From a virus: DNA of 15,144 nt. Where the stretch lies: the UHGV virus genome UHGV-2113352; one strand, written 5' to 3'. Of the stretch, positions 203 through 15,144 are shown one piece after another (within the stretch, counting starts at the first letter, position 1; the number at the start of each line of letters is the position of its first letter). The notes under the pieces are model-generated. The model made no database searches. It saw only the letters and a list, made by a program, of their open reading frames with translations, and was not told the DNA's origin. The position numbers and the translations under genes were made by a program.

Positions 203-694
203 TTAAAGAAAAATATTCATAGCCAAGAATCCGACACCTCCAGCCAACACCAAGATACCTAAAACAACTATGGTTCGTAGCCCGCTTATCGATCTTTGCT
301 GAGACTCCGCCGCCGCCTCTAACTTGCTTTTCAATTCCGCTAATTGTTTAGCAATGCGGCTATCACTTGCTGTGCAGCCTTGTTCAAACTGCTCAGGTGT
401 TACAAACTTCAAGGCTGCAACCTCACGCCTTAGTTTCAACTGTTCATCTTTGATCTGGCCTAGAAGATCATTTAGTGACATAAGGCGACCGTCAAACTCT
501 TCAAATTTATTCGAGTTCTTCGTAAACAATTCAGCGTGTTCATAAGCTAGATTTACGAGCGTTGATTTCGCAGCCTCTATCTCAGTTCTTGCATCGCTGA
601 CGGCGCTCAACAGGCCATTAAACTGTGCCACTTGCGTCGATTGCTCTTCGAGTGAATCGATTACCCGGTGTAGTTTCTGTATGTCATTCACCAA
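203..694 (-). CDS. Small coiled-coil protein with C-terminal transmembrane anchor; third gene of the candidate defence operon
   Basis: 163-aa ORF. Charged, Leu-rich, heptad-like central region followed by a hydrophobic C-terminal segment (TIVVLGILVLAGGVGFLAMNIFL). Its start (TTG 692-694 or GTG 689-691) overlaps the stop of the upstream giant gene (TGA 688-690). A Shine-Dalgarno-like AAGGGG lies on the minus strand at about 700-705. No family recognised. Confidence 0.6.
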   Translation of the reverse strand: MVNDIQKLHRVIDSLEEQSTQVAQFNGLLSAVSDARTEIEAAKSTLVNLAYEHAELFTKNSNKFEEFDGRLMSLNDLLGQIKDEQLKLRREVAALKFVTPEQFEQGCTASDSRIAKQLAELKSKLEAAAESQQRSISGLRTIVVLGILVLAGGVGFLAMNIFL

Positions 695-3600
695 TTAATC
701 CCCTTGTATAGGCTGGTAAGTTTTTCAAGTCTAATTGCCAGTGGAGCTAACAAAGTGTGATAGGAGAACGGATCTCCTAGCTCTTCATTTACTTCCCCAA
801 GAAAATCCAAATCTTCAAATTTCTCATGGACCAAACGAGCAAAGCGACTTCGCGCATTTTCAGAAAATATTGGTTTTAACTGCATAGTTTTTCGGACCAG
901 CTCTAGTGCTTCATCCCTATTATCACTGATCAACCGATCAAATGACGATGCCATTCTTCGCTCTCCATCTGCATCATCAAACTCATCGGAAGCTAGTCGC
1001 AGCACACCACTCAAGTAGTTCAAGAATGCATTATCTTTGTATGACTCTAGGAATCGAGAAATCTGACCTCGTAGGATCGTCATCTTCTCGCTGCTTACTA
1101 AATGTTCCGAGCCCTCTTCTTCATCAGTTTCAAAAAAAACTGATGGCCATAACCTCACCGACACAGAATTCTCAGCCATATTGAGCAAAAGTTGGCTCGA
1201 CTTGTCGTGTCTGAAATAACCCTCTAACTTCTCCTTAAATTCTTTACCATCCATCCTGCCTTCAGCAAATAAACTACAGTGTTCATAAACATTCTTCTGT
1301 GACTGGCGGCGGTTGTAGACAAAATGGTCATAGGACCAAAGTAAAAGAACAAGAAAGATAAATTGCGATTTATCGATAGACCCTTTTCTCAGCTTGTCGC
1401 AGAGAATTTTGTAGTACTGGTTATCACTACTGAACACATCAGCGAGCTTAAACTCAGGATCATACTTTCTGACGGTATGCTCAATTTTCTTTTCCAGGCC
1501 TTCTTCCGATAGGCACTGGAACTCGACAGAGAGCGTTCCATTAAAAAAGTCTTCGATTACCCAGTCAGAGACAATACCTAATTGAGAAAGGCGGTAGATA
1601 GCCTTTTCCAATTTAAACTTTTCCGTACCAAACTGCCTGGCAGTAATGGTCACCGTGTTGTGTTCCTGATTGTACTTAAAAAATTCGTATACATTTGCCA
1701 TCAACTTGAACTCATCATTGATTGTGTCCAAGCCGTTTGTCATCAGGAATAGATTTGTGTTCAGGTCGCTATCGCGACTCAATGACTTCACGTACTCCTT
1801 CAGATCTTTGACGTTCGTGCTAGCGTCCCAAATCTTGTCGAGAATAGCTGAATTGGGCTCTTTTGTGAGAAGCACATAGCAATCTGCGGGTACTTCCTTG
1901 AATAGTTTTTTATCTCGCCCTGCCCTGCCAGCTTCCTGATACAAGGCCTCCATCGACCCAGGTATTCCGAAGTGAACCGTATAGGCAATATTTCCCTTAT
2001 TCACGCCCATTCCGAATGCCTTAGTGGCAGTAAGTAGGCGGTATTTATTTTCTTTAAAATCGTCTTGAACTTGGCGCTTATATCTATCGAAAGCCTCTCC
2101 CTGCAATCCACCCATTTTCGGAGCCGACCCCGAAAAATATCTAACATCCATCTTCAAGAGTGTTGATATTCGGCCCGCTAAGCTATAACACCCCTTAGCT
2201 CCGTTGACGGTAGAAGTGAATATGATCCCCGCCTTATTGCCGTCTTCCCCATCTGAATTCCATTTACCCTCCATTTCAGAAACAAGCTCGACGACTGCAT
2301 CACCTTTACGGCCTTTATCGTCAATGACGTGGAATGATAGTTCCTCGCGAGTGAAGTCCATGGGGGTACGGACAAAATCATCTGGGATATCAAACTCTGT
2401 TTGAATATCCTTTAGGACGTTAACTGATGCTGTTGCCGTTAGACCTATATAACTCGCACTGGGAGCAAACCGTTCGATTGTATTTGCCAGGTTCAGATAA
2501 GAAGTCCTGAAATCATGTCCCCACTCAGACAAACAGTGAGCTTCATCGATCACCGCGTAGGCAAATGAGAGATCTAGTCCGATAGCCAACATCTCTTTTC
2601 TAAACGCATGGGTTTGGAATCGCTCAGGCGATATAAAAACGAAGAAGTACTTACCACGTCCGAAATCTCTCTGAACTTTGGCCTTCTCTCCTGCCTTCAA
2701 ATCACTTGTAATAAAATTGCTTCGAGTGAAGCCGATGCTATCCAAATCTGCTTTCTGGTCATACATCAAACTTTTTATCGGGCACACGACAAAGCTAACG
2801 GCTGGTTGCAGGACCGCAGACAGCTGGTAACAAATCGACTTACCCGAACCTGTAGGCAGCAATCCTATTGTGCCGTTTTTCGAAAGTGCAGATCCTATGA
2901 TACCAACCTGCCCTTCCCTGAAATCTACATCCTCTAGGTATGGTAGAAACAGGTTGCTGAGGAAGTATCTCAGCGACTCTCTCTGCTCGCTGCCTGGGCT
3001 AAGATCTAGCTTGTAGGTAATGGGGTTACTACATGAAAGCTCGAAAAAGTCATAGTCAATCAATTGACTGGTTTCTATTGAAACAGCATCAGAATCTTCG
3101 AAGTTTCGATAGAAATCGAAGTAATCCGTACGTGAATATATGACGTCTTGGTTAACTTGAAAGGAATCGTCATAACGCTCCAGTAAGCTGAAGTCGATGA
3201 ATATATTTTCACCAGACCGTTCGCTCGGAAGCTCATCTGATTCGATCAGCGCAACCTCAATTCGCTTTTCTTCAATGCCGATGAGACGAAAGATATTCGA
3301 TAACAAATCGTTCAGGTCGTCCAGTGCCGCTTCAGCAAAATCAGTTCCATCACGATTGACTATGAATAGTTTTTTCAACTCCCCTAGTCTGATCTGACCG
3401 CGTTCAAGAAGCTCTAATAACAGTATCTGGAAACGCAACGCCGAGGTCAGCCTCAATCGCGAGTCAGTAACATCGACTCCATTTTCATAAGCCTCTTGGT
3501 AATTCAATAAAGAAATACCATTAGGAGGCGTTAGGACACCATTTCGCTCTAGACTATCAACGAGCTGAATTTGAGAAATAATCGAATTTATCTTACTGAT

Positions 3601-5364
3601 AAATGACTGATTCTCAGATGCCACTTCTCGAACAGTGAAACGAACTGTCTTCAGTCCCAAGGTTTCAGTAAACGCATCCCTCATCTCATCTAAATGCTGA
3701 GAATTTTGGTGCTGTTGACCATCTATCTCAATAATTAAACCAACTTGAGGAATGTAAAAATCTACCTGTCGGTTCTGGAATTGTTCAACGTAGACCTGAG
3801 TCATATCGTAAATCTGAACTTCAGGGAGCATTAGTTGTTTTACAAAAATGTACTCACCGAAATACTTTGGAATCAGCTCATCAAAAAACCTTTTCGCTGG
3901 GTAGTACCCAGAATGCTTGTTGCCTCGAATCAATCTATTCCAAAAAACTGGCTTATCTGACACAAGAGCCTGAGCTGATGTATTAAGACCGCTCTTCTCC
4001 AGTTCAATGCCAAATGCCTTCCTCAGTTTCCGCGAGGCTATTGTTGGCTTCCCTCTCTGAAGCATATTCTTAAGAACTTGAATTGCTGCAAATAGCTGTC
4101 CAGACGCCGCTTCAGACGAGATAGAATACTGGAGAAGATTGTGGAAAATGAAGTTATGGTTGGTTCTCGCGTAGTTAGCAGAAAACTTCTTGCTTACAAG
4201 CCTGCTACTAGACTTCGACCTGACATGTCTAGATAGTTCACTTTCGTCCGCCAGCGAGTCGATGATTGGGTTGTACAAATCTGAAAACAGTTGGTTATTG
4301 TGTTGTTGTTCTTGGCTGTCAGTGCCTAGCTCCAATCTATAGAGAGTTTTAACCAACGTAAAAATGTAAATACTTGAATTCGGAAAAGCTTGAGATAGAC
4401 AGCGTGTTATCTCATCAGTTGTAGCCCCCGAAGTTAATACGTCGTCAATGATCAGAAATGTCGGATTTGAATTAGCTTCTATTGAATCAAAATCGGCTTT
4501 ATAGGCACCTCTGACCTGGTGGAGTCTTTGTGCTGCAGTGCAATTAGTCGATTTATCTAATACGTGATCTTTCTCTAATATCTTAGGTTGGTAAGAAGCC
4601 CCTAAAGCAACAGCCAGCGATTTGCCCAAGGTATCTAATGCTTTATCGTCATCTTCAGCCCTAAGCTCAGCGTGACCTAACGCTCGAACAACTATATCTA
4701 TGGCTGGGAATGAAGGAGCTAGCTCAACAGTCTTGTTAACCCAGCGGCGAACAGAAGTATTCTTGTTATCCTTGAAAGACCAAACTTCCTGTTTGATACC
4801 ATCTAAATAGAATCCCAGATGAAGTTTATTCCCAGATTGTATTAACTCAGAACGTCCAGTTCTTGCGGAGCTCCGCGTCGAGTTTTTTCCAATAAGCTCG
4901 GAGAGACTGCTTATTCCCTTATGTGACGAATCGATCTCCGAGGCAGAACCCCAATCTACTGAGAAAAACTCAACTCCTGCATTGGAAGCAGCGTCTCGAT
5001 CTAGGTTACTATCTCCTAAATAAATTGACTCGTCGGCGCTAACACCGAAGTACTCGAGAATACGAGTAACGCCCTCAGGGCTCGGCTTATGCTGCGTTAC
5101 ATCATGGTAGGCTACTACATAATCAACAGTGATACTGAAGTGTTTGAGTAGCCCCTGAACGTAGTTCGAAGGCGCATTCGAGAAGATAGCAACCTTGATT
5201 CCAACCGACCGAGCCGTTGTAACAAGGCCGACAACGTCCTGATTGATGACACAACCATTAAAGTACCTGGGTATGTCTCTCCATCGGCCAGCTGACCGAA
5301 GTGGTTCGAGGCTTGATGTATCAATAAGCGTGTCATCAAGATCGAGGACGATGACCTTTATCAC
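688..5364 (-). CDS. Giant multidomain protein: N-terminal HAD-type phosphatase, phosphoribosyltransferase (PRTase), DUF559 (Vsr-like) endonuclease-like domain, RecQ-like SF2 helicase, and an unassigned ~400-aa C-terminal region
   Basis: 1558-aa uninterrupted ORF. HAD motif I LDLDDTL (aa 7-13) and motif IV GDSNLD (aa 117-122), nt about 4945-5364. PRTase PRPP-binding motif FLIIDDVLTSGATT (aa 303-316, nt 4417-4458). DUF559-type motif VDFYIPQVGLIIEIDGQQH followed by ..RD..L..G..RF (aa 534-577, nt about 3565-3957). RecQ-type helicase motifs: Walker A LPTGSGKS (aa 836-843, nt 2836-2859, checked against DNA), VIDEAHCLSEWGHDFR (aa 938-953, checked), LTATA (aa 975-979), YQEAGRAGRD (aa 1142-1151). GTG start at 5362-5364 overlaps the TGA stop of the upstream DprA-like gene (GTGA); SD-like AAGGTGG sits 6 nt upstream. 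Confidence 0.85.
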   Translation of the reverse strand: MIKVIVLDLDDTLIDTSSLEPLRSAGRWRDIPRYFNGCVINQDVVGLVTTARSVGIKVAIFSNAPSNYVQGLLKHFSITVDYVVAYHDVTQHKPSPEGVTRILEYFGVSADESIYLGDSNLDRDAASNAGVEFFSVDWGSASEIDSSHKGISSLSELIGKNSTRSSARTGRSELIQSGNKLHLGFYLDGIKQEVWSFKDNKNTSVRRWVNKTVELAPSFPAIDIVVRALGHAELRAEDDDKALDTLGKSLAVALGASYQPKILEKDHVLDKSTNCTAAQRLHQVRGAYKADFDSIEANSNPTFLIIDDVLTSGATTDEITRCLSQAFPNSSIYIFTLVKTLYRLELGTDSQEQQHNNQLFSDLYNPIIDSLADESELSRHVRSKSSSRLVSKKFSANYARTNHNFIFHNLLQYSISSEAASGQLFAAIQVLKNMLQRGKPTIASRKLRKAFGIELEKSGLNTSAQALVSDKPVFWNRLIRGNKHSGYYPAKRFFDELIPKYFGEYIFVKQLMLPEVQIYDMTQVYVEQFQNRQVDFYIPQVGLIIEIDGQQHQNSQHLDEMRDAFTETLGLKTVRFTVREVASENQSFISKINSIISQIQLVDSLERNGVLTPPNGISLLNYQEAYENGVDVTDSRLRLTSALRFQILLLELLERGQIRLGELKKLFIVNRDGTDFAEAALDDLNDLLSNIFRLIGIEEKRIEVALIESDELPSERSGENIFIDFSLLERYDDSFQVNQDVIYSRTDYFDFYRNFEDSDAVSIETSQLIDYDFFELSCSNPITYKLDLSPGSEQRESLRYFLSNLFLPYLEDVDFREGQVGIIGSALSKNGTIGLLPTGSGKSICYQLSAVLQPAVSFVVCPIKSLMYDQKADLDSIGFTRSNFITSDLKAGEKAKVQRDFGRGKYFFVFISPERFQTHAFRKEMLAIGLDLSFAYAVIDEAHCLSEWGHDFRTSYLNLANTIERFAPSASYIGLTATASVNVLKDIQTEFDIPDDFVRTPMDFTREELSFHVIDDKGRKGDAVVELVSEMEGKWNSDGEDGNKAGIIFTSTVNGAKGCYSLAGRISTLLKMDVRYFSGSAPKMGGLQGEAFDRYKRQVQDDFKENKYRLLTATKAFGMGVNKGNIAYTVHFGIPGSMEALYQEAGRAGRDKKLFKEVPADCYVLLTKEPNSAILDKIWDASTNVKDLKEYVKSLSRDSDLNTNLFLMTNGLDTINDEFKLMANVYEFFKYNQEHNTVTITARQFGTEKFKLEKAIYRLSQLGIVSDWVIEDFFNGTLSVEFQCLSEEGLEKKIEHTVRKYDPEFKLADVFSSDNQYYKILCDKLRKGSIDKSQFIFLVLLLWSYDHFVYNRRQSQKNVYEHCSLFAEGRMDGKEFKEKLEGYFRHDKSSQLLLNMAENSVSVRLWPSVFFETDEEEGSEHLVSSEKMTILRGQISRFLESYKDNAFLNYLSGVLRLASDEFDDADGERRMASSFDRLISDNRDEALELVRKTMQLKPIFSENARSRFARLVHEKFEDLDFLGEVNEELGDPFSYHTLLAPLAIRLEKLTSLYKGINW

Positions 5365-12296: not shown

Positions 12297-12566
12297 ATGT
12301 CCGCACTGAAAAAGCAGCGCATCGATTTGAGATTAACCGATGACGATAAAAGCATCATCGAGGAAGCTGCCGCAATGTCTAACCAGAGCATTACCCAGTT
12401 CATGGTTAGCAGTGCATCCGAACGTGCCGTGAAGGTGATAGAGCAACACCGTAGACTGGTTCTAAGTGAAGAGTCCTGGAATCTGGTTATGGATGCTATA
12501 AGCAATCCTCCGGCACCGAACGACAAGCTGAAACGAGCTGCCAATCGTCTGAAAAGCATGGAGTAA
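12297..12566 (+). CDS. DUF1778 (RHH-type) antitoxin of a GNAT toxin-antitoxin pair (TacA/AtaR-like)
   Basis: 89-aa ORF MSALKKQRIDLRLTDDDKSIIEEAAA..SNPPAPNDKLKRAANRLKSME closely matches the TacA/AtaR antitoxin family as I remember it. Sits 7 nt upstream of the GNAT toxin gene. AGGGGG SD before the ATG. Confidence 0.8.
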   Translation: MSALKKQRIDLRLTDDDKSIIEEAAAMSNQSITQFMVSSASERAVKVIEQHRRLVLSEESWNLVMDAISNPPAPNDKLKRAANRLKSME

Positions 12567-12573
12567 TTTACTC

Positions 12574-13095
12574 GTGAGCAATACGACGATCGAGATTTTC
12601 TCTGGAGAGAACGATTATGATCTAAACGGTTTTGATTGCGGCGAAGAGTCACTAAACGCATTTTTGACCAACCACTTAAAAAGACAGCATGAAGGAAAAA
12701 TTCTTCGCGCTTATGTGCTTTGCACTAAAGAAGAAATACCAAAGGTATTAGGTTATTACACTTTGTCAGGCAGCTGCTTTGAGAAAGAAACCTTACCTTC
12801 AAAGAGTCAGCAAAAGAAAGTGCCTTATCGGAATGTCCCAAGTATCACTTTAGGCAGACTGGCTTTGGACAAATCTCTTCAAGGTCAGGGGCTTGGCTCA
12901 ATGCTTGTAACTCACGCAATGCGTGTTGTGTACAATGCATCTCTTGCGGTAGGCATTCATGGGCTTTTCGTTGAGGCGTTGAACGATAAAGCCAGGGCGT
13001 TTTATAAAAGTTTGGGCTTTATCCAGCTGGTTGGTAACAACGATCGTTCTTTGTTCTATCCAACAAAATCTATCGAAAAATTGTTCGAAGAATAA
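12574..13095 (+). CDS. GNAT-family acetyltransferase toxin (TacT/AtaT-like, aminoacyl-tRNA acetylating)
   Basis: 173-aa ORF with GTG start. Acetyl-CoA binding motif QGQGLGSMLV; size and the upstream DUF1778 antitoxin are typical of TacAT/AtaRT/KacAT modules. Confidence 0.8.
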   Translation: MSNTTIEIFSGENDYDLNGFDCGEESLNAFLTNHLKRQHEGKILRAYVLCTKEEIPKVLGYYTLSGSCFEKETLPSKSQQKKVPYRNVPSITLGRLALDKSLQGQGLGSMLVTHAMRVVYNASLAVGIHGLFVEALNDKARAFYKSLGFIQLVGNNDRSLFYPTKSIEKLFEE

Positions 13096-13101
13096 TGTGT
13101 C

Positions 13102-13117
13102 CCCCTCATTTGAGGGG
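13102..13117 (+). terminator. GC-rich hairpin immediately after the tacT stop codon (possible terminator or stabilising stem-loop in the convergent gap)
   Basis: CCCCTC (13102-13107), loop ATTT, GAGGGG (13112-13117), starting 7 nt after TAA (13093-13095). No clear U-tract on the plus strand; modestly T-rich on the minus-strand side. Confidence 0.25.
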
Positions 13118-13127
13118 AACTTGGACA

Positions 13128-13343
13128 TCACCAACCGCAAACTCTCTCTCCCATCGTATTGTGAAAAAGGATTTGGCGTTCGGTTTCTTCGGTCATTACA
13201 TCGTCATTGCTGATATAAATAGGTTCAGCGCCATCGCAGAACAACACGCTGGTGGTCTGTGGCTTAATTACGCACCCACTTATCATGCAGCTCACGATGA
13301 ATGGCAGAAGCATCTTTCTGACGTATTTCACTGTTCGTCTCAT
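13128..13343 (-). CDS. Putative o-spanin (Rz1-like outer-membrane lipoprotein), overlapping the 3' end of the i-spanin-like gene in another frame
   Basis: 71-aa ORF with ATG at 13341-13343. Lipoprotein-type signal peptide: basic n-region MRRTVKYVRK, hydrophobic MLLPFIVSCMIS and lipobox ISGC. The short mature part has further Cys residues. Overlaps 13264-13343 of the upstream gene and extends beyond its stop, the overlapped spanin architecture. Confidence 0.4.
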   Translation of the reverse strand: MRRTVKYVRKMLLPFIVSCMISGCVIKPQTTSVLFCDGAEPIYISNDDVMTEETERQILFHNTMGERVCGW

Positions 13344-13515
13344 TCACCACTTCCACTGTGCTTTGAAGACGCTTGTTATCTTCCCGCCGTTCTTTCTCTT
13401 CCATACTGCGTCTGGCCATATACCCGCCATAGGAGTATGCGCCGACAAGGACTAGAATGACGGCGGCCAGAGTGAACAAAGCGGATTTCATTTTGAACAA
13501 CAGGCCGTCGAACAT
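13264..13515 (-). CDS. Putative i-spanin (Rz-like) or holin-like small membrane protein
   Basis: 83-aa ORF. N-terminal transmembrane segment ALFTLAAVILVLVGAYSYGGY followed by a highly charged periplasmic-type tail. ATG at 13513-13515 is only 2 nt downstream of the stop of the preceding gene. Contains the overlapping lipoprotein ORF. Confidence 0.4.
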   Translation of the reverse strand: MFDGLLFKMKSALFTLAAVILVLVGAYSYGGYMARRSMEEKERREDNKRLQSTVEVVNETNSEIRQKDASAIHRELHDKWVRN

Positions 13516-13517
13516 AC

Positions 13518-14237
13518 TTACACTAATCCTTTCTGGTGCTTGCGAACCTGGGACCAGGCAATGAATGCTGCCACAAGAATGGTAGCTACGCCAAAGATGA
13601 TGCGTACCGTATCTCCACTGGAGATATTGCCTTGCGCTTTATCCATTGCGGCAGAAACTTGAGGCATAACGTCAGCAATTTGTGCAAGGCCAATACCTGC
13701 AGTGACTGTAGCACCTGTGGTTTCTTTTGTTACTGGAACGGCTTTTACAGCCTTTACCGGTTTGACAATGCCGGCACGTCGCAGACCTTCTTCGATAAGT
13801 TCTGGTGTATACCAGCTATTGGGAGTTTTCAGCGGACCTCGGCCATTTTCATGTCTAATGATCGCCTCTACCAGCGGTCTTAAGGTCTCGTAGTCATGCA
13901 GATCGATAATCATATCTGGTGCTACTCCAACGGCTTTGGATACCTCGTTCACATAAGCCAAAGTGTTGTTCTCATGTGGAGGCGCCCAGCGTTCGATGAC
14001 TTCGCGGATCGTATCAATGCTGGAGCCATCTTTTGCGCGGCGCTTGTCGTGGTAAGTAATGAGTGTCACTGCCAATGCCCGAATCCCCCACACGGGGTCT
14101 TTAAACGTGCAGAAGCGCGGTTCTGAAGAGTTGTTGACTAAGCCCTGCCACGGCGCTCCTTTATCAAGATTACCGGGGTTGTTATTACGAATGCCTCTCG
14201 GAGTTTTCATCCTTGATCTCCTGTTATTGCAATCCAT
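13518..14237 (-). CDS. Hypothetical membrane-anchored protein; candidate lysis enzyme (endolysin-like) by position only
   Basis: 239-aa ORF with ATG at 14235-14237. Conserved-looking N-terminal motif RGIRNNNPGNL; C-terminal hydrophobic helix VRIIFGVATILVAAFIAWSQV. Located between a small membrane protein gene and the spanin-like pair. No catalytic family could be assigned by eye. Confidence 0.5.
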   Translation of the reverse strand: MDCNNRRSRMKTPRGIRNNNPGNLDKGAPWQGLVNNSSEPRFCTFKDPVWGIRALAVTLITYHDKRRAKDGSSIDTIREVIERWAPPHENNTLAYVNEVSKAVGVAPDMIIDLHDYETLRPLVEAIIRHENGRGPLKTPNSWYTPELIEEGLRRAGIVKPVKAVKAVPVTKETTGATVTAGIGLAQIADVMPQVSAAMDKAQGNISSGDTVRIIFGVATILVAAFIAWSQVRKHQKGLV

Positions 14238-14559
14238 TTTTTACGCCATACGCGGCCAATCCTAAAAGCAGTACGGTAATAATGAACGACGTTATTTTCG
14301 AAACAATGCCGCCAAAGAACCCACTGGAGATGGTGTCGAGCCGGTTAAGAAGTTTGTCCAGATTGGAGTGCTGAATGCTGTATTGTGCGGGCGTCATATC
14401 GCCAAAGTAGGTTTTGAGCTGGTCATTGACCTCCTGACCAATTTCCTCGCGTATTTCTTTACCTAATTTGCCTACGACTTCCCGAGCAACGATTGAGGCG
14501 ATGCGCTCAACCTGTTCAGTTGTGACTCCCGCCATCTCGTTCGACATGTTTTCCTCCAT
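14224..14559 (-). CDS. Small membrane protein, candidate holin or antiholin (positional inference)
   Basis: 111-aa ORF with ATG at 14557-14559. Hydrophilic N-terminal ~75 aa and a single C-terminal transmembrane helix ITSFIITVLLLGLAAYGV. Overlaps the next gene by 14 nt. Confidence 0.45.
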   Translation of the reverse strand: MEENMSNEMAGVTTEQVERIASIVAREVVGKLGKEIREEIGQEVNDQLKTYFGDMTPAQYSIQHSNLDKLLNRLDTISSGFFGGIVSKITSFIITVLLLGLAAYGVKNGLQ

Positions 14560-14607
14560 GAAAAGTCAAATCGGGATGGCGTGTTTATATCATATTTTAA
14601 CCATTTG

Positions 14608-14631
14608 TAGTAGGTATGTACTTACCTACTA
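14608..14631 (-). promoter_or_regulatory. Candidate operator (motif A, copy 2) upstream of the lysis-like operon
   Basis: TAGTAGGTA-TGTACT-TACCTACTA: a perfect 9-bp inverted repeat with 6-bp spacer. Lies 49-72 nt upstream of the ATG at 14559 and shares the 15-mer TAGGTATGTACTTAC with copy 1. Confidence 0.45.
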
Positions 14632-14680
14632 TATATCTTGCAAACTAATCGTTGTTAATAATGCAGATATAATCTGCCCC

Positions 14681-15028
14681 TTACTCTGCTGGTATTGTTG
14701 GCCAGTCAATATCCGGTGCCGTTGATGTGTCAATGCGGTTCAATAAAACTCTATACTTCTTCCATGCAGTCAGCAACGATGCTTCTTCCTCCGTTGCAAT
14801 CTCCAAATCTACAGCATCCTGAAGTGGCGCAATGTGCTCGCTGGCTACCTGCATCAGACTTTTTTTTGTTTCTTCCGCTTCCCGTACCTGAAACAATTTT
14901 TCTGTTTCCTTATCCTTCTCCCAGGATGTGCCGTCCCACTTCTGATATTCCCCATCCGGTGATAACCAGGTGACATTTTCCGGTAATGGCCCAAGTTCAG
15001 AAATAAACAACGCGTCCCCTGATTCCAC
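14681..15028 (-). CDS. Tail fibre assembly protein (Tfa family), apparently lacking an N-terminal domain
   Basis: 115-aa ORF ending ..[32 protein letters not shown], the conserved C-terminal signature of enterobacterial phage Tfa proteins (TfaE, Mu U, P1 U type). The track start is GTG at 15026-15028. The same frame stays open upstream to a stop at 15128-15130 and encodes ..[11 protein letters not shown].., which looks like continued Tfa homology, with no ATG/GTG/TTG in between. Confidence 0.7.
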
Positions 15029-15144
15029 GTCATAGACCGTTTTACCCCTGTGGTCTTCAACGAGACTCCGGTAATGACTCCAACTTATTGATAGTGTTTT
15101 ATGTTCAGATAATGCCCGATGACTTTGTCATGCAGCTCCACCGA

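What the first reader, a model, noticed from the sequence alone, without database searches (positions are those of the whole stretch)
13518..14559. Atypical lysis-gene candidates: both proteins carry C-terminal rather than N-terminal membrane helices
The 111-aa protein has a soluble N-terminal domain and a single C-terminal transmembrane helix. The 239-aa protein has the motif RGIRNNNPGNL near its N-terminus and also ends in a transmembrane helix. Canonical holins and signal-anchor-release endolysins are membrane-anchored at the N-terminus, so if these are the holin and endolysin of the cassette their topology is unusual. Alternatively they are a different kind of membrane-associated pair.
Basis: inference. 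Interest (0 to 1): 0.45.

Follow-up and report, generated by a model that had tools for sequence, protein, structure and literature searches.

The report
C-terminally anchored endolysin with tail-anchored partner
These are the first two genes of the cell-bursting (lysis) cassette of an SSU5-like phage-plasmid of E. coli: a wall-degrading enzyme of an already described type that carries its membrane anchor at the C-terminal end, and a small uncharacterised membrane protein anchored the same way that probably helps to trigger or time lysis.

Summary
Both ORFs end in a real transmembrane helix and neither has one at the N-terminus. The true products are probably 107 and 230 aa, because strong Shine-Dalgarno sites precede Met5 and Met10.

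The window is an SSU5-like phage-plasmid. The minus-strand cassette reads 107-aa protein, 230-aa endolysin, Rz, then overlapping Rz1.

The 230-aa protein is a full-length member of the Enc34/M4Lys family, now called C-terminal-anchor (CTA) endolysins. It matches PDB 7Q47 at E=3e-56 and keeps the catalytic Glu plus Trp and Tyr. It is 54% identical to the Redjac endolysin, C-terminal membrane module included. That part is already known.

The 107-aa protein is unrelated to the N-terminally anchored "holin" of chi-like phages. It belongs to phrog_5093, an uncharacterised family with no Pfam model. All 45 diverse members examined share a helical N-domain, an FGDM..H...H motif and a C-terminal TM. 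Members head lysis cassettes that carry four unrelated endolysin types.

Where the endolysin has no anchor, a separate multi-TM small protein was always present (10 of 10 loci). This mirrors the two-component holins SPP1 gp24.1/gp26 and PBSX XhlA/XhlB, with no sequence homology. Whether the protein acts as holin component or antiholin is unresolved.

Interest is moderate.

The parts
14224..14547 (-). Gene for the 107-aa tail-anchored membrane protein (phrog_5093 family). The maximal ORF runs to 14559 (111 aa).
   Evidence: ORF. GGAGG lies 5 nt before the Met5 ATG. Homologues are annotated as 107 aa in SSU5, Cyrano and PGAP. phrog_5093 match E=7e-67. No Pfam or NCBIfam hit.
14553..14557 (-). 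Shine-Dalgarno GGAGG for the 107-aa gene
   Evidence: Read directly from the sequence.
14335..14409 (-). Family signature YFGDMTPAQ(Y)SIQHSNLDKLLNRLD. This is the most conserved part of phrog_5093 (consensus FGxM..xxHxxQHxR...L...D).
   Evidence: Alignments A2 and A4: G49 and H60 are invariant; H56, R62 and D71 are nearly invariant.
14380..14382 (-). Codon 56, TAC (Tyr). It replaces the nearly invariant His of the signature and is a rare allele.
   Evidence: 89 of 89 close relatives have His. It is the only residue that differs from the nearest relatives. The exact Tyr56 protein occurs on 5 contigs, against at least 1000 for the His56 form.
14242..14295 (-). C-terminal transmembrane helix of the 107-aa protein (residues 85-102). 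Only 5 residues follow it.
   Evidence: Hydropathy. AF2 helix 81-103. Conserved across the family.
13518..14210 (-). Gene for the 230-aa C-terminally anchored endolysin (Enc34/M4Lys type). The maximal ORF runs to 14237 (239 aa).
   Evidence: phrog_873 endolysin E=3e-86. PDB 7q47 E=3e-56. 54% identity over the full length to the Redjac endolysin. AGGAG lies 7 nt before Met10.
14218..14222 (-). Shine-Dalgarno AGGAG for the endolysin gene, inside the 13-nt gap after the upstream stop codon
   Evidence: Read directly from the sequence.
13761..14201 (-). Muralytic domain (PHA02564 type, residues 4-150). Trp75 is at 13986-13988, Tyr86 at 13953-13955 and the catalytic Glu121 at 13848-13850.
   Evidence: Alignment to 7q47 maps these residues to Enc34 Trp79, Tyr95 and Glu131 (PMC8943055). 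They are invariant in 20 homologues. AF2 pLDDT is about 90, and Foldseek finds 7q47 with TM-score 0.79.
13719..13760 (-). Lys-rich flexible linker PVKAVKAVPVTKET (net charge +3)
   Evidence: AF2 pLDDT below 50. Sequence.
13635..13718 (-). Proximal, weakly hydrophobic helix of the C-terminal module (residues 165-192). Gly, Pro and Ala positions are conserved.
   Evidence: Hessa sum +8.1, family median 8.0. AF2 helix 175-192. G174, P183 and A188 are invariant.
13554..13601 (-). Distal transmembrane helix of the endolysin (residues 204-219)
   Evidence: Hessa sum +0.58. Hydropathy. AF2 helix 199-229.
13521..13553 (-). Basic C-terminal tail SQVRKHQKGLV (net +3), predicted cytoplasmic
   Evidence: Charge count. 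Family consensus is SQVKKHQxG.
13264..13515 (-). Rz-like i-spanin, 83 aa, with an N-terminal TM helix
   Evidence: phrog_1026 E=4e-22. Hydropathy. Weak similarity to Redjac Rz.
13128..13343 (-). Rz1-like o-spanin lipoprotein, 71 aa. The lipobox ISGC is at 13272-13283. The gene overlaps the 3' end of Rz in another frame.
   Evidence: phrog_1275 E=3e-25. 57% identity to Redjac Rz1 over the C-terminal 37 residues. Lipobox.
13099..13120 (-). Terminator-like GC-rich hairpin just after the Rz1 stop codon; probable end of the cassette transcript
   Evidence: This is a consensus match only.

Best explanation
Window 13128-14547 (minus strand) is the four-gene lysis cassette of an SSU5-like phage-plasmid.

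Shown:
- The 230-aa protein is a C-terminally anchored (CTA) endolysin of the Enc34/M4Lys family. It has a lysozyme-alpha-lobe-like muralytic domain with catalytic Glu121, a basic flexible linker, and a conserved two-helix membrane module.
- That module is one marginally hydrophobic helix followed by one true TM helix with a +3 tail.

Inferred from charge distribution:
- The module is an N-in/C-in hairpin. The enzyme therefore waits on the cytoplasmic face of the inner membrane.

Taken from experiments on homologues (not this protein):
- The full-length protein lyses E. coli by itself when overproduced.
- Deleting the membrane module abolishes this lysis.
- Azide does not block it.

Inferred for the 107-aa protein:
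- It is tail-anchored. Its roughly 80-residue charged helical domain stays in the cytoplasm, a single TM helix spans the membrane, and only 5 residues lie outside.
- It is the first gene of the lysis operon.
- It acts like XhlA of PBSX or gp24.1 of SPP1, the C-terminally anchored half of a two-component holin. Here the second membrane component would be the endolysin's own two-helix module.
- Together the two would permeabilise the inner membrane at a set time, so that the tethered enzyme reaches the murein.

Rz and Rz1 then break the outer membrane.

Sub-confidences:
- Cassette and endolysin identity: 0.95.
- The small protein is a lysis protein: 0.8.
- It is a positive holin component that cooperates with the endolysin's anchor: about 0.4.
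For: Element identity:
- The DNA is 99.8% identical to E. coli plasmids and 80-83% identical to phages SSU5 and Cyrano. All 246 matching places in E. coli genomes are on plasmids.

Cassette:
- PHROG assignments give endolysin, Rz and Rz1.
- Gaps between genes are 13 nt or less, and a terminator-like hairpin follows Rz1.

Endolysin:
- 7q47 match at E=3e-56 and fold match with TM-score 0.79.
- W75, Y86 and E121 are conserved.
- 54% identity to the Redjac endolysin, C-terminal module included.
- Published biochemistry on Enc34 ORF39 and M4Lys (PMC8943055; PMC7143992).

Topology:
- The linker is +3, the loop between the helices is 0 and the tail is +3.
- TMHMM predicted the same N-in/C-in topology for Siskin (PMC6498227).

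Small protein:
- All 45 diverse members match phrog_5093 and keep the C-terminal TM.
- Members head lysis cassettes next to a CTA endolysin (window, L005, L092).
- Others sit next to Peptidase_M15_3 (L173, L176, L235, L238, L242), Peptidase_M15_4 (L089), or a phrog_669 endolysin with an N-terminal SAR-like hydrophobic segment (L174/L175).
- All 10 independent loci without a CTA endolysin carry an extra small multi-TM protein within three genes. Loci with a CTA endolysin carry none.
- The order family member, endolysin, 2-TM protein copies SPP1 gp24.1-gp25-gp26.
- gp24.1 and XhlA have a C-terminal TM. They are harmless alone and lethal together with the 2-TM holin (PMC6316719).
- XhlA is essential for PBSX lysis (PMC6834076).
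- Endolysin and Rz1 are shared with chi-like phages, but the first gene has been swapped (PMC6139136).
Against: - There is no experiment on any phrog_5093 member.
- There is no sequence homology to XhlA. Pfam finds 0 of 45 members and hhalign gives 0.7% probability.
- The endolysin's membrane module shows no homology to the 2-TM partner proteins (hhalign 0.12%). The idea that the anchor replaces the second holin rests only on co-occurrence in about 13 locus types.
- M4Lys lyses cells without its own upstream gene. Co-expression delayed lysis slightly. That fits a regulator as well as it fits a holin, although that upstream protein is unrelated to the one studied here.
- Most partner proteins are called holins from architecture only. 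The single family match is weak (phrog_8226, E=5e-7).
- The proximal helix scores +8 kcal/mol, so the hairpin topology is uncertain.
- The AF2 model of the small protein has low confidence (pLDDT 56).
Confidence: 0.45

Rival explanations
1. The 107-aa protein is an antiholin or negative timing regulator. The endolysin's C-terminal module (or the separate holin in other phages) makes the lesion, and the small protein binds it in the membrane and delays triggering.
For: - The family always occurs with another membrane-active lysis protein.
- In BSPM4, co-expressing the (unrelated) upstream gene slowed M4Lys lysis slightly. M4Lys needs no helper, and its membrane module expressed alone is bacteriostatic.
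- The window's rare H56Y change in the signature motif looks like the kind of allele that shifts lysis timing.
Against: - The best-studied proteins with this architecture and position, XhlA and gp24.1, are positive effectors needed for lethality.
- The first gene of a lambda-like cassette is usually the holin.
- There is no dual-start or other antiholin signature conserved across the family.
Confidence: 0.25
2. The 107-aa protein is an autonomous one-TM holin or pinholin, and the endolysin's C-terminal helix is only a releasable anchor. The catalytic domain would already be periplasmic (N-out, C-in, as Bai et al. predicted for M4Lys) and would be freed or activated when the holin depolarises the membrane, following SAR-endolysin logic.
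For: - It is the only free small membrane protein in this cassette.
- Phobius and Phyre2 predicted N-out for M4Lys, and three basic residues follow its TM helix.
- The Enc34 authors raise a SAR-like release with a pinholin as a possibility.
Against: - No known route exports a folded 200-residue N-terminal domain that lacks a signal sequence.
- The basic linker (+3) ahead of the module argues for a cytoplasmic N-side.
- Relatives of the small protein sit next to soluble M15 endolysins, which need large holes. In those loci a second multi-TM protein is present, so the small protein does not look sufficient alone.
Confidence: 0.2
3. The 107-aa protein is not a lysis protein. It would be a moron, a superinfection-exclusion factor or a tail-fibre-associated membrane protein that happens to lie between the tail and lysis modules.
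For: - It always follows tail-fibre genes.
- SSU5 carries Cor and other membrane proteins at this junction.
- PHROGs lists the family as unknown function.
Against: - The gene is tightly coupled to the lysis genes. The gap is 13 nt with a Shine-Dalgarno site in the window, and the genes overlap or lie 3-14 nt apart elsewhere. The gap to the tail genes is larger, 133 nt in the window.
- It keeps its place at the head of lysis cassettes while both the endolysin type and the tail genes change.
Confidence: 0.08
4. The 230-aa protein is a virion-borne cell-wall-piercing enzyme used at infection, not the endolysin.
For: - The same catalytic domain occurs at the N-terminus of the 1295-aa Gp29 chain of PDB entry 9vvp, an entry titled 'Core proteins of the bacteriophage E1004'.
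- It also matches PHROGs annotated as tape measure, head protein and tail injection transglycosylase.
- NCBI's name for the domain is 'virion protein'.
Against: - It is a 230-aa stand-alone protein with a membrane anchor, sitting between a holin-like gene and Rz/Rz1.
- The homologues Enc34 ORF39 and M4Lys behave as endolysins.
- No other lysin candidate lies in the cassette.
Confidence: 0.02

Closest known systems
Enc34 ORF39 and BSPM4 M4Lys endolysins of chi-like and related phages (PHA02564 catalytic domain plus C-terminal membrane module; reportedly named 'CTA endolysins' in 2025)
   Same: - The catalytic domain is 59-60% identical to the Enc34 domain, with the same fold and the same Glu, Trp and Tyr.
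- The protein is 54% identical to the Redjac endolysin along its full length, including the linker, the proximal helix, the TM helix and the basic tail.
- It occupies the same place in the cassette and is followed by a homologous Rz1.
   Different: - The host element is a roughly 100-kb phage-plasmid rather than a 60-kb chi-like siphovirus.
- The upstream partner gene is unrelated.
- The 2022 paper thought the architecture was limited to Chivirus and close relatives. Here it is found on plasmids in 243 of 5426 complete E. coli genomes. It also occurs in a Xenorhabdus phage-plasmid contig, a Pasteurella multocida-named contig, an Alcaligenaceae contig and GC-rich viral contigs.
Two-component holins SPP1 gp24.1/gp26 and PBSX XhlA/XhlB (XhlA is Pfam PF10779)
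   Same: - gp24.1 and XhlA are small proteins with a helical N-domain, a single C-terminal TM helix and a very short tail (gp24.1 sequence). They are the first gene of the lysis cluster.
- They need a 2-TM partner.
- Distant phrog_5093 members show the same two gene orders: member, endolysin, 2-TM protein; or member, multi-TM protein, endolysin.
   Different: - There is no detectable sequence relationship.
- The hosts are Gram-negative, so spanins are present.
- In the window there is no free 2-TM partner, only the endolysin's own membrane module.
- The FGDM..H...H signature is absent from XhlA.
Chi-like 'lysis protein B' or Siskin putative 'class IV' holin
   Same: - About 108 aa, with one TM helix plus a roughly 70-residue charged helical domain.
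- It sits immediately upstream of a CTA endolysin.
- With the predicted topologies (N-out/C-in there, N-in/C-out here) the soluble domain is cytoplasmic in both.
   Different: - The TM helix is at the opposite end.
- BLASTP finds no alignment even at E<=100.
- The BSPM4 protein had no effect alone and was dispensable for M4Lys lysis in vitro.
SAR endolysins (P1 Lyz, phage 21 R21)
   Same: A membrane-tethered muralytic enzyme whose action is coupled to the state of the inner membrane, and which can lyse without a large-hole holin.
   Different: - The anchor is C-terminal, not N-terminal, so it cannot act as a Sec signal for the catalytic domain.
- Azide did not block M4Lys.
- The catalytic fold is different.
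Acidovorax phage AP1 LysAP (GH24 lysozyme with a C-terminal TM helix)
   Same: - A C-terminal TM helix followed by basic residues is needed for membrane localisation and for lysis from within.
- It is paired with a one-TM holin.
   Different: - The catalytic domain is unrelated (GH24).
- There is a single TM helix.
- Its holin has the TM near the N-terminus and belongs to a known holin superfamily.
- Its authors argue for Sec dependence.

Membership tests
Enc34/M4Lys-type C-terminally anchored endolysin (PHA02564, phrog_873) | Sequence homology of the N-terminal domain to the Enc34 ORF39 catalytic domain | tested here: met
   phmmer against PDB 7q47 gives E=3.3e-56 over query residues 10-160 of the 239-aa ORF. 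phrog_873 match E=3e-86.
Enc34/M4Lys-type C-terminally anchored endolysin (PHA02564, phrog_873) | All-helical lysozyme-alpha-lobe-like fold | tested here: met
   The AF2 model has pLDDT of about 90 over residues 30-150. Foldseek's top hit is 7q47, with E=1.6e-15 and TM-score 0.79 normalised to the target.
Enc34/M4Lys-type C-terminally anchored endolysin (PHA02564, phrog_873) | Catalytic Glu131 and supporting Trp79 and Tyr95 (Enc34 numbering) | tested here: met
   These align to E121, W75 and Y86 of the 230-aa protein. All three are invariant in 20 homologues. Their roles are taken from PMC8943055.
Enc34/M4Lys-type C-terminally anchored endolysin (PHA02564, phrog_873) | C-terminal membrane module: proximal amphipathic or weakly hydrophobic helix, TM helix and basic tail | tested here: met
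   Hydropathy and Hessa sums. AF2 helices 175-192 and 199-229. The module aligns residue by residue with that of Redjac.
Enc34/M4Lys-type C-terminally anchored endolysin (PHA02564, phrog_873) | Muralytic activity, and lysis from within that depends on the membrane module | not testable with these tools
   Shown only for the homologues Enc34 ORF39 and M4Lys.
SAR endolysin | N-terminal weakly hydrophobic signal-anchor-release domain | tested here: not met
   There is no hydrophobic segment in the first 160 residues. The best windows are all C-terminal.
Chi-like 'lysis protein B' / Siskin class IV holin | Homology to that protein, with an N-terminal TM helix (N-out, C-in) | tested here: not met
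   BLASTP against the Redjac 108-aa protein finds no alignment at E<=100. The TM helix is at residues 85-102 of 107.
XhlA / SPP1 gp24.1 (Pfam PF10779) | Match to the PF10779 profile | tested here: not met
   0 of 45 family members match at E<=0.01. gp24.1 itself matches at 3.9e-14. hhalign of the family against gp24.1 gives 0.7% probability.
XhlA / SPP1 gp24.1 (Pfam PF10779) | Architecture and position: small, helical N-domain, single C-terminal TM helix, first gene of the lysis cluster | tested here: met
   with the literature description.
XhlA / SPP1 gp24.1 (Pfam PF10779) | Works with a separate 2-TM holin encoded in the same cluster | tested here: inconclusive
   A separate multi-TM small protein is present in all 10 independent relatives' loci whose endolysin lacks an anchor. 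It is absent from the window, where only the endolysin's own module could fill that role. Function was not tested.
Canonical holin classes I-III | Three TM helices (class I), two TM helices (class II), or one TM helix with a large periplasmic C-terminal domain (class III, T4 T) | tested here: not met
   There is one TM helix with only 5 residues after it. No holin family in Pfam, NCBIfam or PHROGs matches.
Two-component spanin (Rz/Rz1) | i-spanin with an N-terminal TM helix, plus an o-spanin lipoprotein encoded in an overlapping frame | tested here: met
   phrog_1026 and phrog_1275 matches. TM helix and ISGC lipobox. Rz1 is 57% identical to Redjac Rz1 over its C-terminal 37 residues. SSU5 is grouped with Chi, Enc34 and Redjac spanins in PMC6139136.

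The most novel reading that the evidence does not exclude
CTA-endolysin cassettes could be two-component holin systems in which one holin half has become the C-terminal module of the endolysin itself. The small C-terminally (or, in chi-like phages, N-terminally) anchored protein would be the other half.

On this reading, phrog_5093, together with DUF6127 and other unrelated families seen upstream of CTA endolysins, would be the Gram-negative counterparts of XhlA/gp24.1. That would define a widespread, convergently evolved class of tail-anchored holin partners. It would also explain how a cytoplasmic, tethered enzyme reaches the cell wall.
Probability: 0.25. Interest if true: 0.65.

Novelty: new variant of a known kind. 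Interest (0 to 1): 0.4.

Why it matters
How C-terminally anchored endolysins cross or breach the inner membrane is still unresolved. [quoted passage not shown]

This cassette is native to E. coli and is common: it sits on plasmids in 243 of 5426 complete E. coli genomes. It has only four genes, so the question can be tested directly with ordinary E. coli genetics.

The comparative result is the useful part. The small partner protein belongs to an unannotated family that heads lysis cassettes with four different endolysin types. A separate multi-TM protein accompanies it exactly when the endolysin lacks its own anchor.

That pattern gives a concrete hypothesis linking CTA endolysins to the two-component holins known from Bacillus phages. 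It would also give phrog_5093, and possibly DUF6127, a function. The endolysin identification itself is routine.

Tried and rejected
1. Both proteins carry 'ISSG' exactly 35 residues from the C-terminus, which suggested a shared origin for their anchors. Profile-profile comparison gives 0.95% probability, so I treat it as chance.
2. Homology of the small protein to the chi-like/Redjac upstream protein: none.
3. Homology to XhlA/gp24.1: none.
4. Homology of the endolysin's membrane module to the 2-TM partner proteins of relatives: none, 0.12%. The 'fused holin' idea therefore has no sequence support.
5. AF2 of the small protein gives pLDDT 56, four helices and no usable fold. A profile search of PDB sequences returns only designed helical repeats.
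6. The C-terminally anchored proteins upstream of CTA endolysins in L007, L031 and L037 are not detectably related to phrog_5093, scoring 0 to 7 bits. L037's protein is DUF6127.
7. Searching with the last 81 residues of the endolysin, to look for free-standing or differently fused copies, returned only fragments of the same protein.
8. Wider context surveys added little:
   - The genome contigs pattern scan gave 58 stretches, of which 10 were real. Eight are Enterobacterales contigs and two are MAG contigs labelled Bacillota and Fimivivens, all about as similar as the close SSU5-like relatives.
   - The metagenome scan returned one locus, from the same source contig as L174.
9. No sigma-70 consensus promoter was found in 12900-15144.
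10. PADLOC gave no hits.
11. An apparent 234-aa 'C-terminal TM' protein upstream of soluble PHA02564 lysins in marine contigs looks, from its sequence motifs only (not tested against any profile), like a metallophosphatase-type enzyme. I read its 'TM' as a false positive.
12. I could not obtain Cernooka et al. 2025 on CTA endolysins. It is not in the library, and I know of it only through.
Full report
**What is in the sequence.**
- They are followed, on the same strand, by an 83-aa ORF (13264-13515) and a 71-aa ORF (13128-13343). The 71-aa ORF overlaps the end of the 83-aa ORF in another frame.
- PHROGs assigns the 239-aa protein to an endolysin family (phrog_873, E=3e-86). It assigns the next two to Rz-like spanins (phrog_1026 and phrog_1275) and the 111-aa protein to phrog_5093, 'unknown function'.
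- Pfam and NCBIfam recognise neither of the first two proteins.
- Upstream lies a tail-fibre assembly gene. Downstream, on the other strand, lies a TacA-like antitoxin with a GNAT toxin.

**What the element is.**
- The DNA is 99.8% identical to E. coli plasmids and about 80-83% identical to phages SSU5 and Cyrano.
- In complete E. coli genomes, all 246 matching places are on plasmids, in 243 of 5426 genomes.
- The window therefore comes from an SSU5-like phage-plasmid.

**Gene starts.**
- GGAGG (14553-14557) lies 5 nt before the ATG of Met5 of the small ORF.
- AGGAG (14218-14222) lies 7 nt before the ATG of Met10 of the large ORF. Neither first ATG has such a site.
- SSU5, Cyrano and PGAP all annotate 107 and 230 aa. 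The N-terminal extensions are not open in all relatives.
- The products are thus 107 aa (14224-14547) and 230 aa (13518-14210). The genes are 13 nt apart rather than overlapping.

**The C-terminal helices are real.**
- In each protein the only strongly hydrophobic stretch is at the C-terminus.
- Simple Hessa-scale sums over 19 residues give +0.85 kcal/mol for the 107-aa protein and +0.58 for the endolysin. The neighbouring Rz anchor scores +0.59.
- The endolysin also has a weaker helix just before the TM helix, at residues 165-192 (+8.1; family median 8.0).
- The feature is conserved in 20 of 20 diverse endolysin homologues. All 45 diverse homologues of the small protein carry a C-terminal hydrophobic segment, and no N-terminal segment in that family scores below +9.9.

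**The endolysin is a known type.**
- A sequence search of the PDB finds 7q47, the catalytic domain of the Hafnia phage Enc34 endolysin, at E=3e-56.
- The AF2 model is confident over the catalytic domain. Foldseek returns 7q47 first, with TM-score 0.79 and 59-60% identity.
- The published catalytic Glu131 and the supporting Trp79 and Tyr95 align to E121, W75 and Y86. All three are invariant in 20 homologues.
- The protein is 54% identical over its whole length to the endolysin of the chi-like phage Redjac. That includes the linker, the proximal helix, the TM helix and the basic tail.

**What the literature says about this type.**
- Siskin (2019) predicted two C-terminal TM domains with N-in/C-in topology and proposed a new endolysin class.
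- For M4Lys (2020), the full-length protein lysed E. coli on its own, and azide did not prevent this. Removing the membrane domain abolished lysis, and the membrane domain alone was bacteriostatic. The soluble domain degraded peptidoglycan with glucosaminidase-type products.
- For Enc34 (2022), the truncated domain was muralytic. [quoted passage not shown] The authors stressed that no known route could export the N-terminal domain.
- An unrelated GH24 endolysin with a C-terminal TM helix is known from Acidovorax phage AP1.
- A 2026 preprint reports that Cernooka et al. (2025) named these 'C-terminal anchor (CTA) endolysins' and that their activation remains unresolved. I could not read that paper.

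**Topology inference.**
- The linker before the module is +3, the loop between the two helices is 0 and the tail is +3.
- By the positive-inside rule this favours an N-in/C-in hairpin with the enzyme in the cytoplasm, as predicted for Siskin.
- The weak proximal helix makes this uncertain.

**The small protein.**
- It is not related to the upstream protein of chi-like phages. That protein has its TM helix at the N-terminus, and BLASTP finds no alignment.
- The endolysin and Rz1 are shared with those phages, and Kongari et al. group the SSU5 spanin with Chi, Enc34 and Redjac. The first gene of the cassette has therefore been exchanged.
- A word-indexed search found only close relatives in Enterobacterales phage-plasmids.
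- A profile search of 1.8 billion representatives found 61 proteins, mostly 100-140 aa.
- The 45 full-length ones all match phrog_5093 and no Pfam family.
- They share an Ala/Glu/Lys-rich helical N-domain and a signature (Y/H)FG(D/E)M..xxHxxQHxR...L...D...(N)F(W)G. G49 and H60 are invariant. A C-terminal hydrophobic helix follows, with a median of 8 residues after it.
- The N-domain carries 8 Lys/Arg, which argues against its translocation. I infer N-in/C-out, that is, a tail-anchored protein.

**Genomic context of the family.** Members always follow tail-fibre genes and head a lysis cluster, but the endolysin type varies.
- CTA type: window, SSU5-like loci, Xenorhabdus L005 and the distant L092.
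- Peptidase_M15_3: L173, L176, L235, L238 and L242.
- Peptidase_M15_4: L089.
- A phrog_669 endolysin with an N-terminal SAR-like segment, preceded by a three-TM protein that weakly matches a holin family: L174/L175.

In all 10 independent loci where the endolysin has no membrane anchor, or is not adjacent, an additional small multi-TM protein lies within three genes. In the CTA loci there is none. Five loci have the order member, M15 endolysin, conserved 2-TM protein, Rz.

**The closest functional parallel.**
- In Bacillus phage SPP1, gp24.1 has a predicted C-terminal TM helix and gp26 is a canonical 2-TM holin. Their genes flank the endolysin gene.
- Each is harmless alone, and together they kill and lyse. 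PBSX XhlA/XhlB are their homologues, with both genes preceding the endolysin gene.
- XhlA is essential for PBSX lysis.
- gp24.1 (83 aa) has the same layout as the protein studied here and is a PF10779 member. The phrog_5093 family shows no homology to it.
- I therefore say it works like XhlA, not that it is an XhlA.

**Proposed mechanism and its limits.**
- The small protein is a lysis-operon membrane protein that acts together with a second membrane component.
- In this cassette, the only candidate for that second component is the endolysin's own two-helix module.
- This would explain both why the module is indispensable and why no separate holin is present.
- The support is indirect: co-occurrence and analogy. 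The module is not homologous to the 2-TM partners.
- M4Lys lysed cells without its (unrelated) upstream gene, and co-expression slowed lysis slightly. An antiholin role therefore remains a serious rival.
- A stand-alone pinholin with SAR-like release of a pre-exported enzyme is a third possibility.

**Verdict.**
- The endolysin half is an already described kind, in a new and very common host element.
- The partner is an uncharacterised family with an XhlA-like layout.
- Together they form a new variant of a known kind of lysis system. This is of moderate interest, mainly as a tractable E. coli model for the unresolved CTA mechanism.

Noticed in passing
window 14380-14382 (minus strand), codon 56 of the 107-aa gene: The window's copy has Tyr where the family has a nearly invariant His, in the FGDM..H...H signature. 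It is the only amino-acid difference from the nearest relatives, and one of three nucleotide differences in 1601 nt against plasmid pYUXYEH3934-1. The exact Tyr56 protein is on 5 contigs, against at least 1000 for the His56 form. It could be a lysis-timing allele or a neutral variant.
   Followed up: partly
window 12297-12566 (+) and 12574-13095 (+): A TacA-like antitoxin (PF08681, E=3.5e-26) and a GNAT acetyltransferase toxin sit convergent with the lysis cassette, between it and ParA. Cyrano annotates the GNAT protein as a KacT-type toxin, and the same pair sits at this spot in a Xenorhabdus phage-plasmid. PADLOC has no match.
   Followed up: partly
window 13521-13625 and 14227-14331 (minus strand): Both lysis proteins contain 'ISSG' exactly 35 residues before their C-termini, just ahead of their TM helices. 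Profile comparison gives 0.95% probability of homology, so this is probably coincidence.
   Followed up: yes
L037:2126-2416 (also L007:2205-2504 and L031:2146-2433): Other CTA-endolysin loci are preceded by small proteins with the same layout (soluble helical N-domain plus C-terminal TM helix) but no detectable similarity to phrog_5093. The one in L037 belongs to DUF6127 (PF19622, E=3.6e-22). This may hint at a lysis function for that domain of unknown function.
   Followed up: partly
L176:3760-3993, L235:3791-4066, L238:3839-4093, L242:3755-3973, L173:718-1059: A conserved, unannotated small protein of 72-91 aa (the L173 copy is read from a longer 113-aa ORF). It has one strongly and one moderately hydrophobic segment, read here as two TM helices, with the motif ARPY(L/V)T...FN..C.W....GPTN..I(I/V)GFWFGE. 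It lies directly after Peptidase_M15_3 endolysins and before Rz-like genes. Its only match is weak, to phrog_6637 (unknown function). It is a likely unrecognised holin family.
   Followed up: partly
L021-L087 (IMG/VR loci): The PHA02564 muralytic domain occurs in two stand-alone forms: about 220-240 aa with a C-terminal membrane module, and about 135-165 aa soluble. It also occurs inside large proteins: the 1295-aa Gp29 chain of PDB 9vvp ('Core proteins of the bacteriophage E1004'), PHROGs annotated as tape measure or head protein, and two loci with ORFs above 800 aa.
   Followed up: partly
window 688-5364 (minus strand): There is a 1558-aa ORF whose sequence suggests a fusion of several enzymatic domains, ending in a helicase-like region. 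It is followed by 328-aa, 403-aa and 446-aa ORFs that look like replication proteins by eye only. None of these was analysed.
   Followed up: no
L177 and L201 (genome-contig hits): Two metagenome-assembled genomes, labelled Fimivivens and Bacillota, carry phrog_5093 genes about as similar as those of the close SSU5-like relatives. This looks like mis-binned Enterobacterales phage-plasmid contigs rather than real Firmicutes hosts.
   Followed up: no
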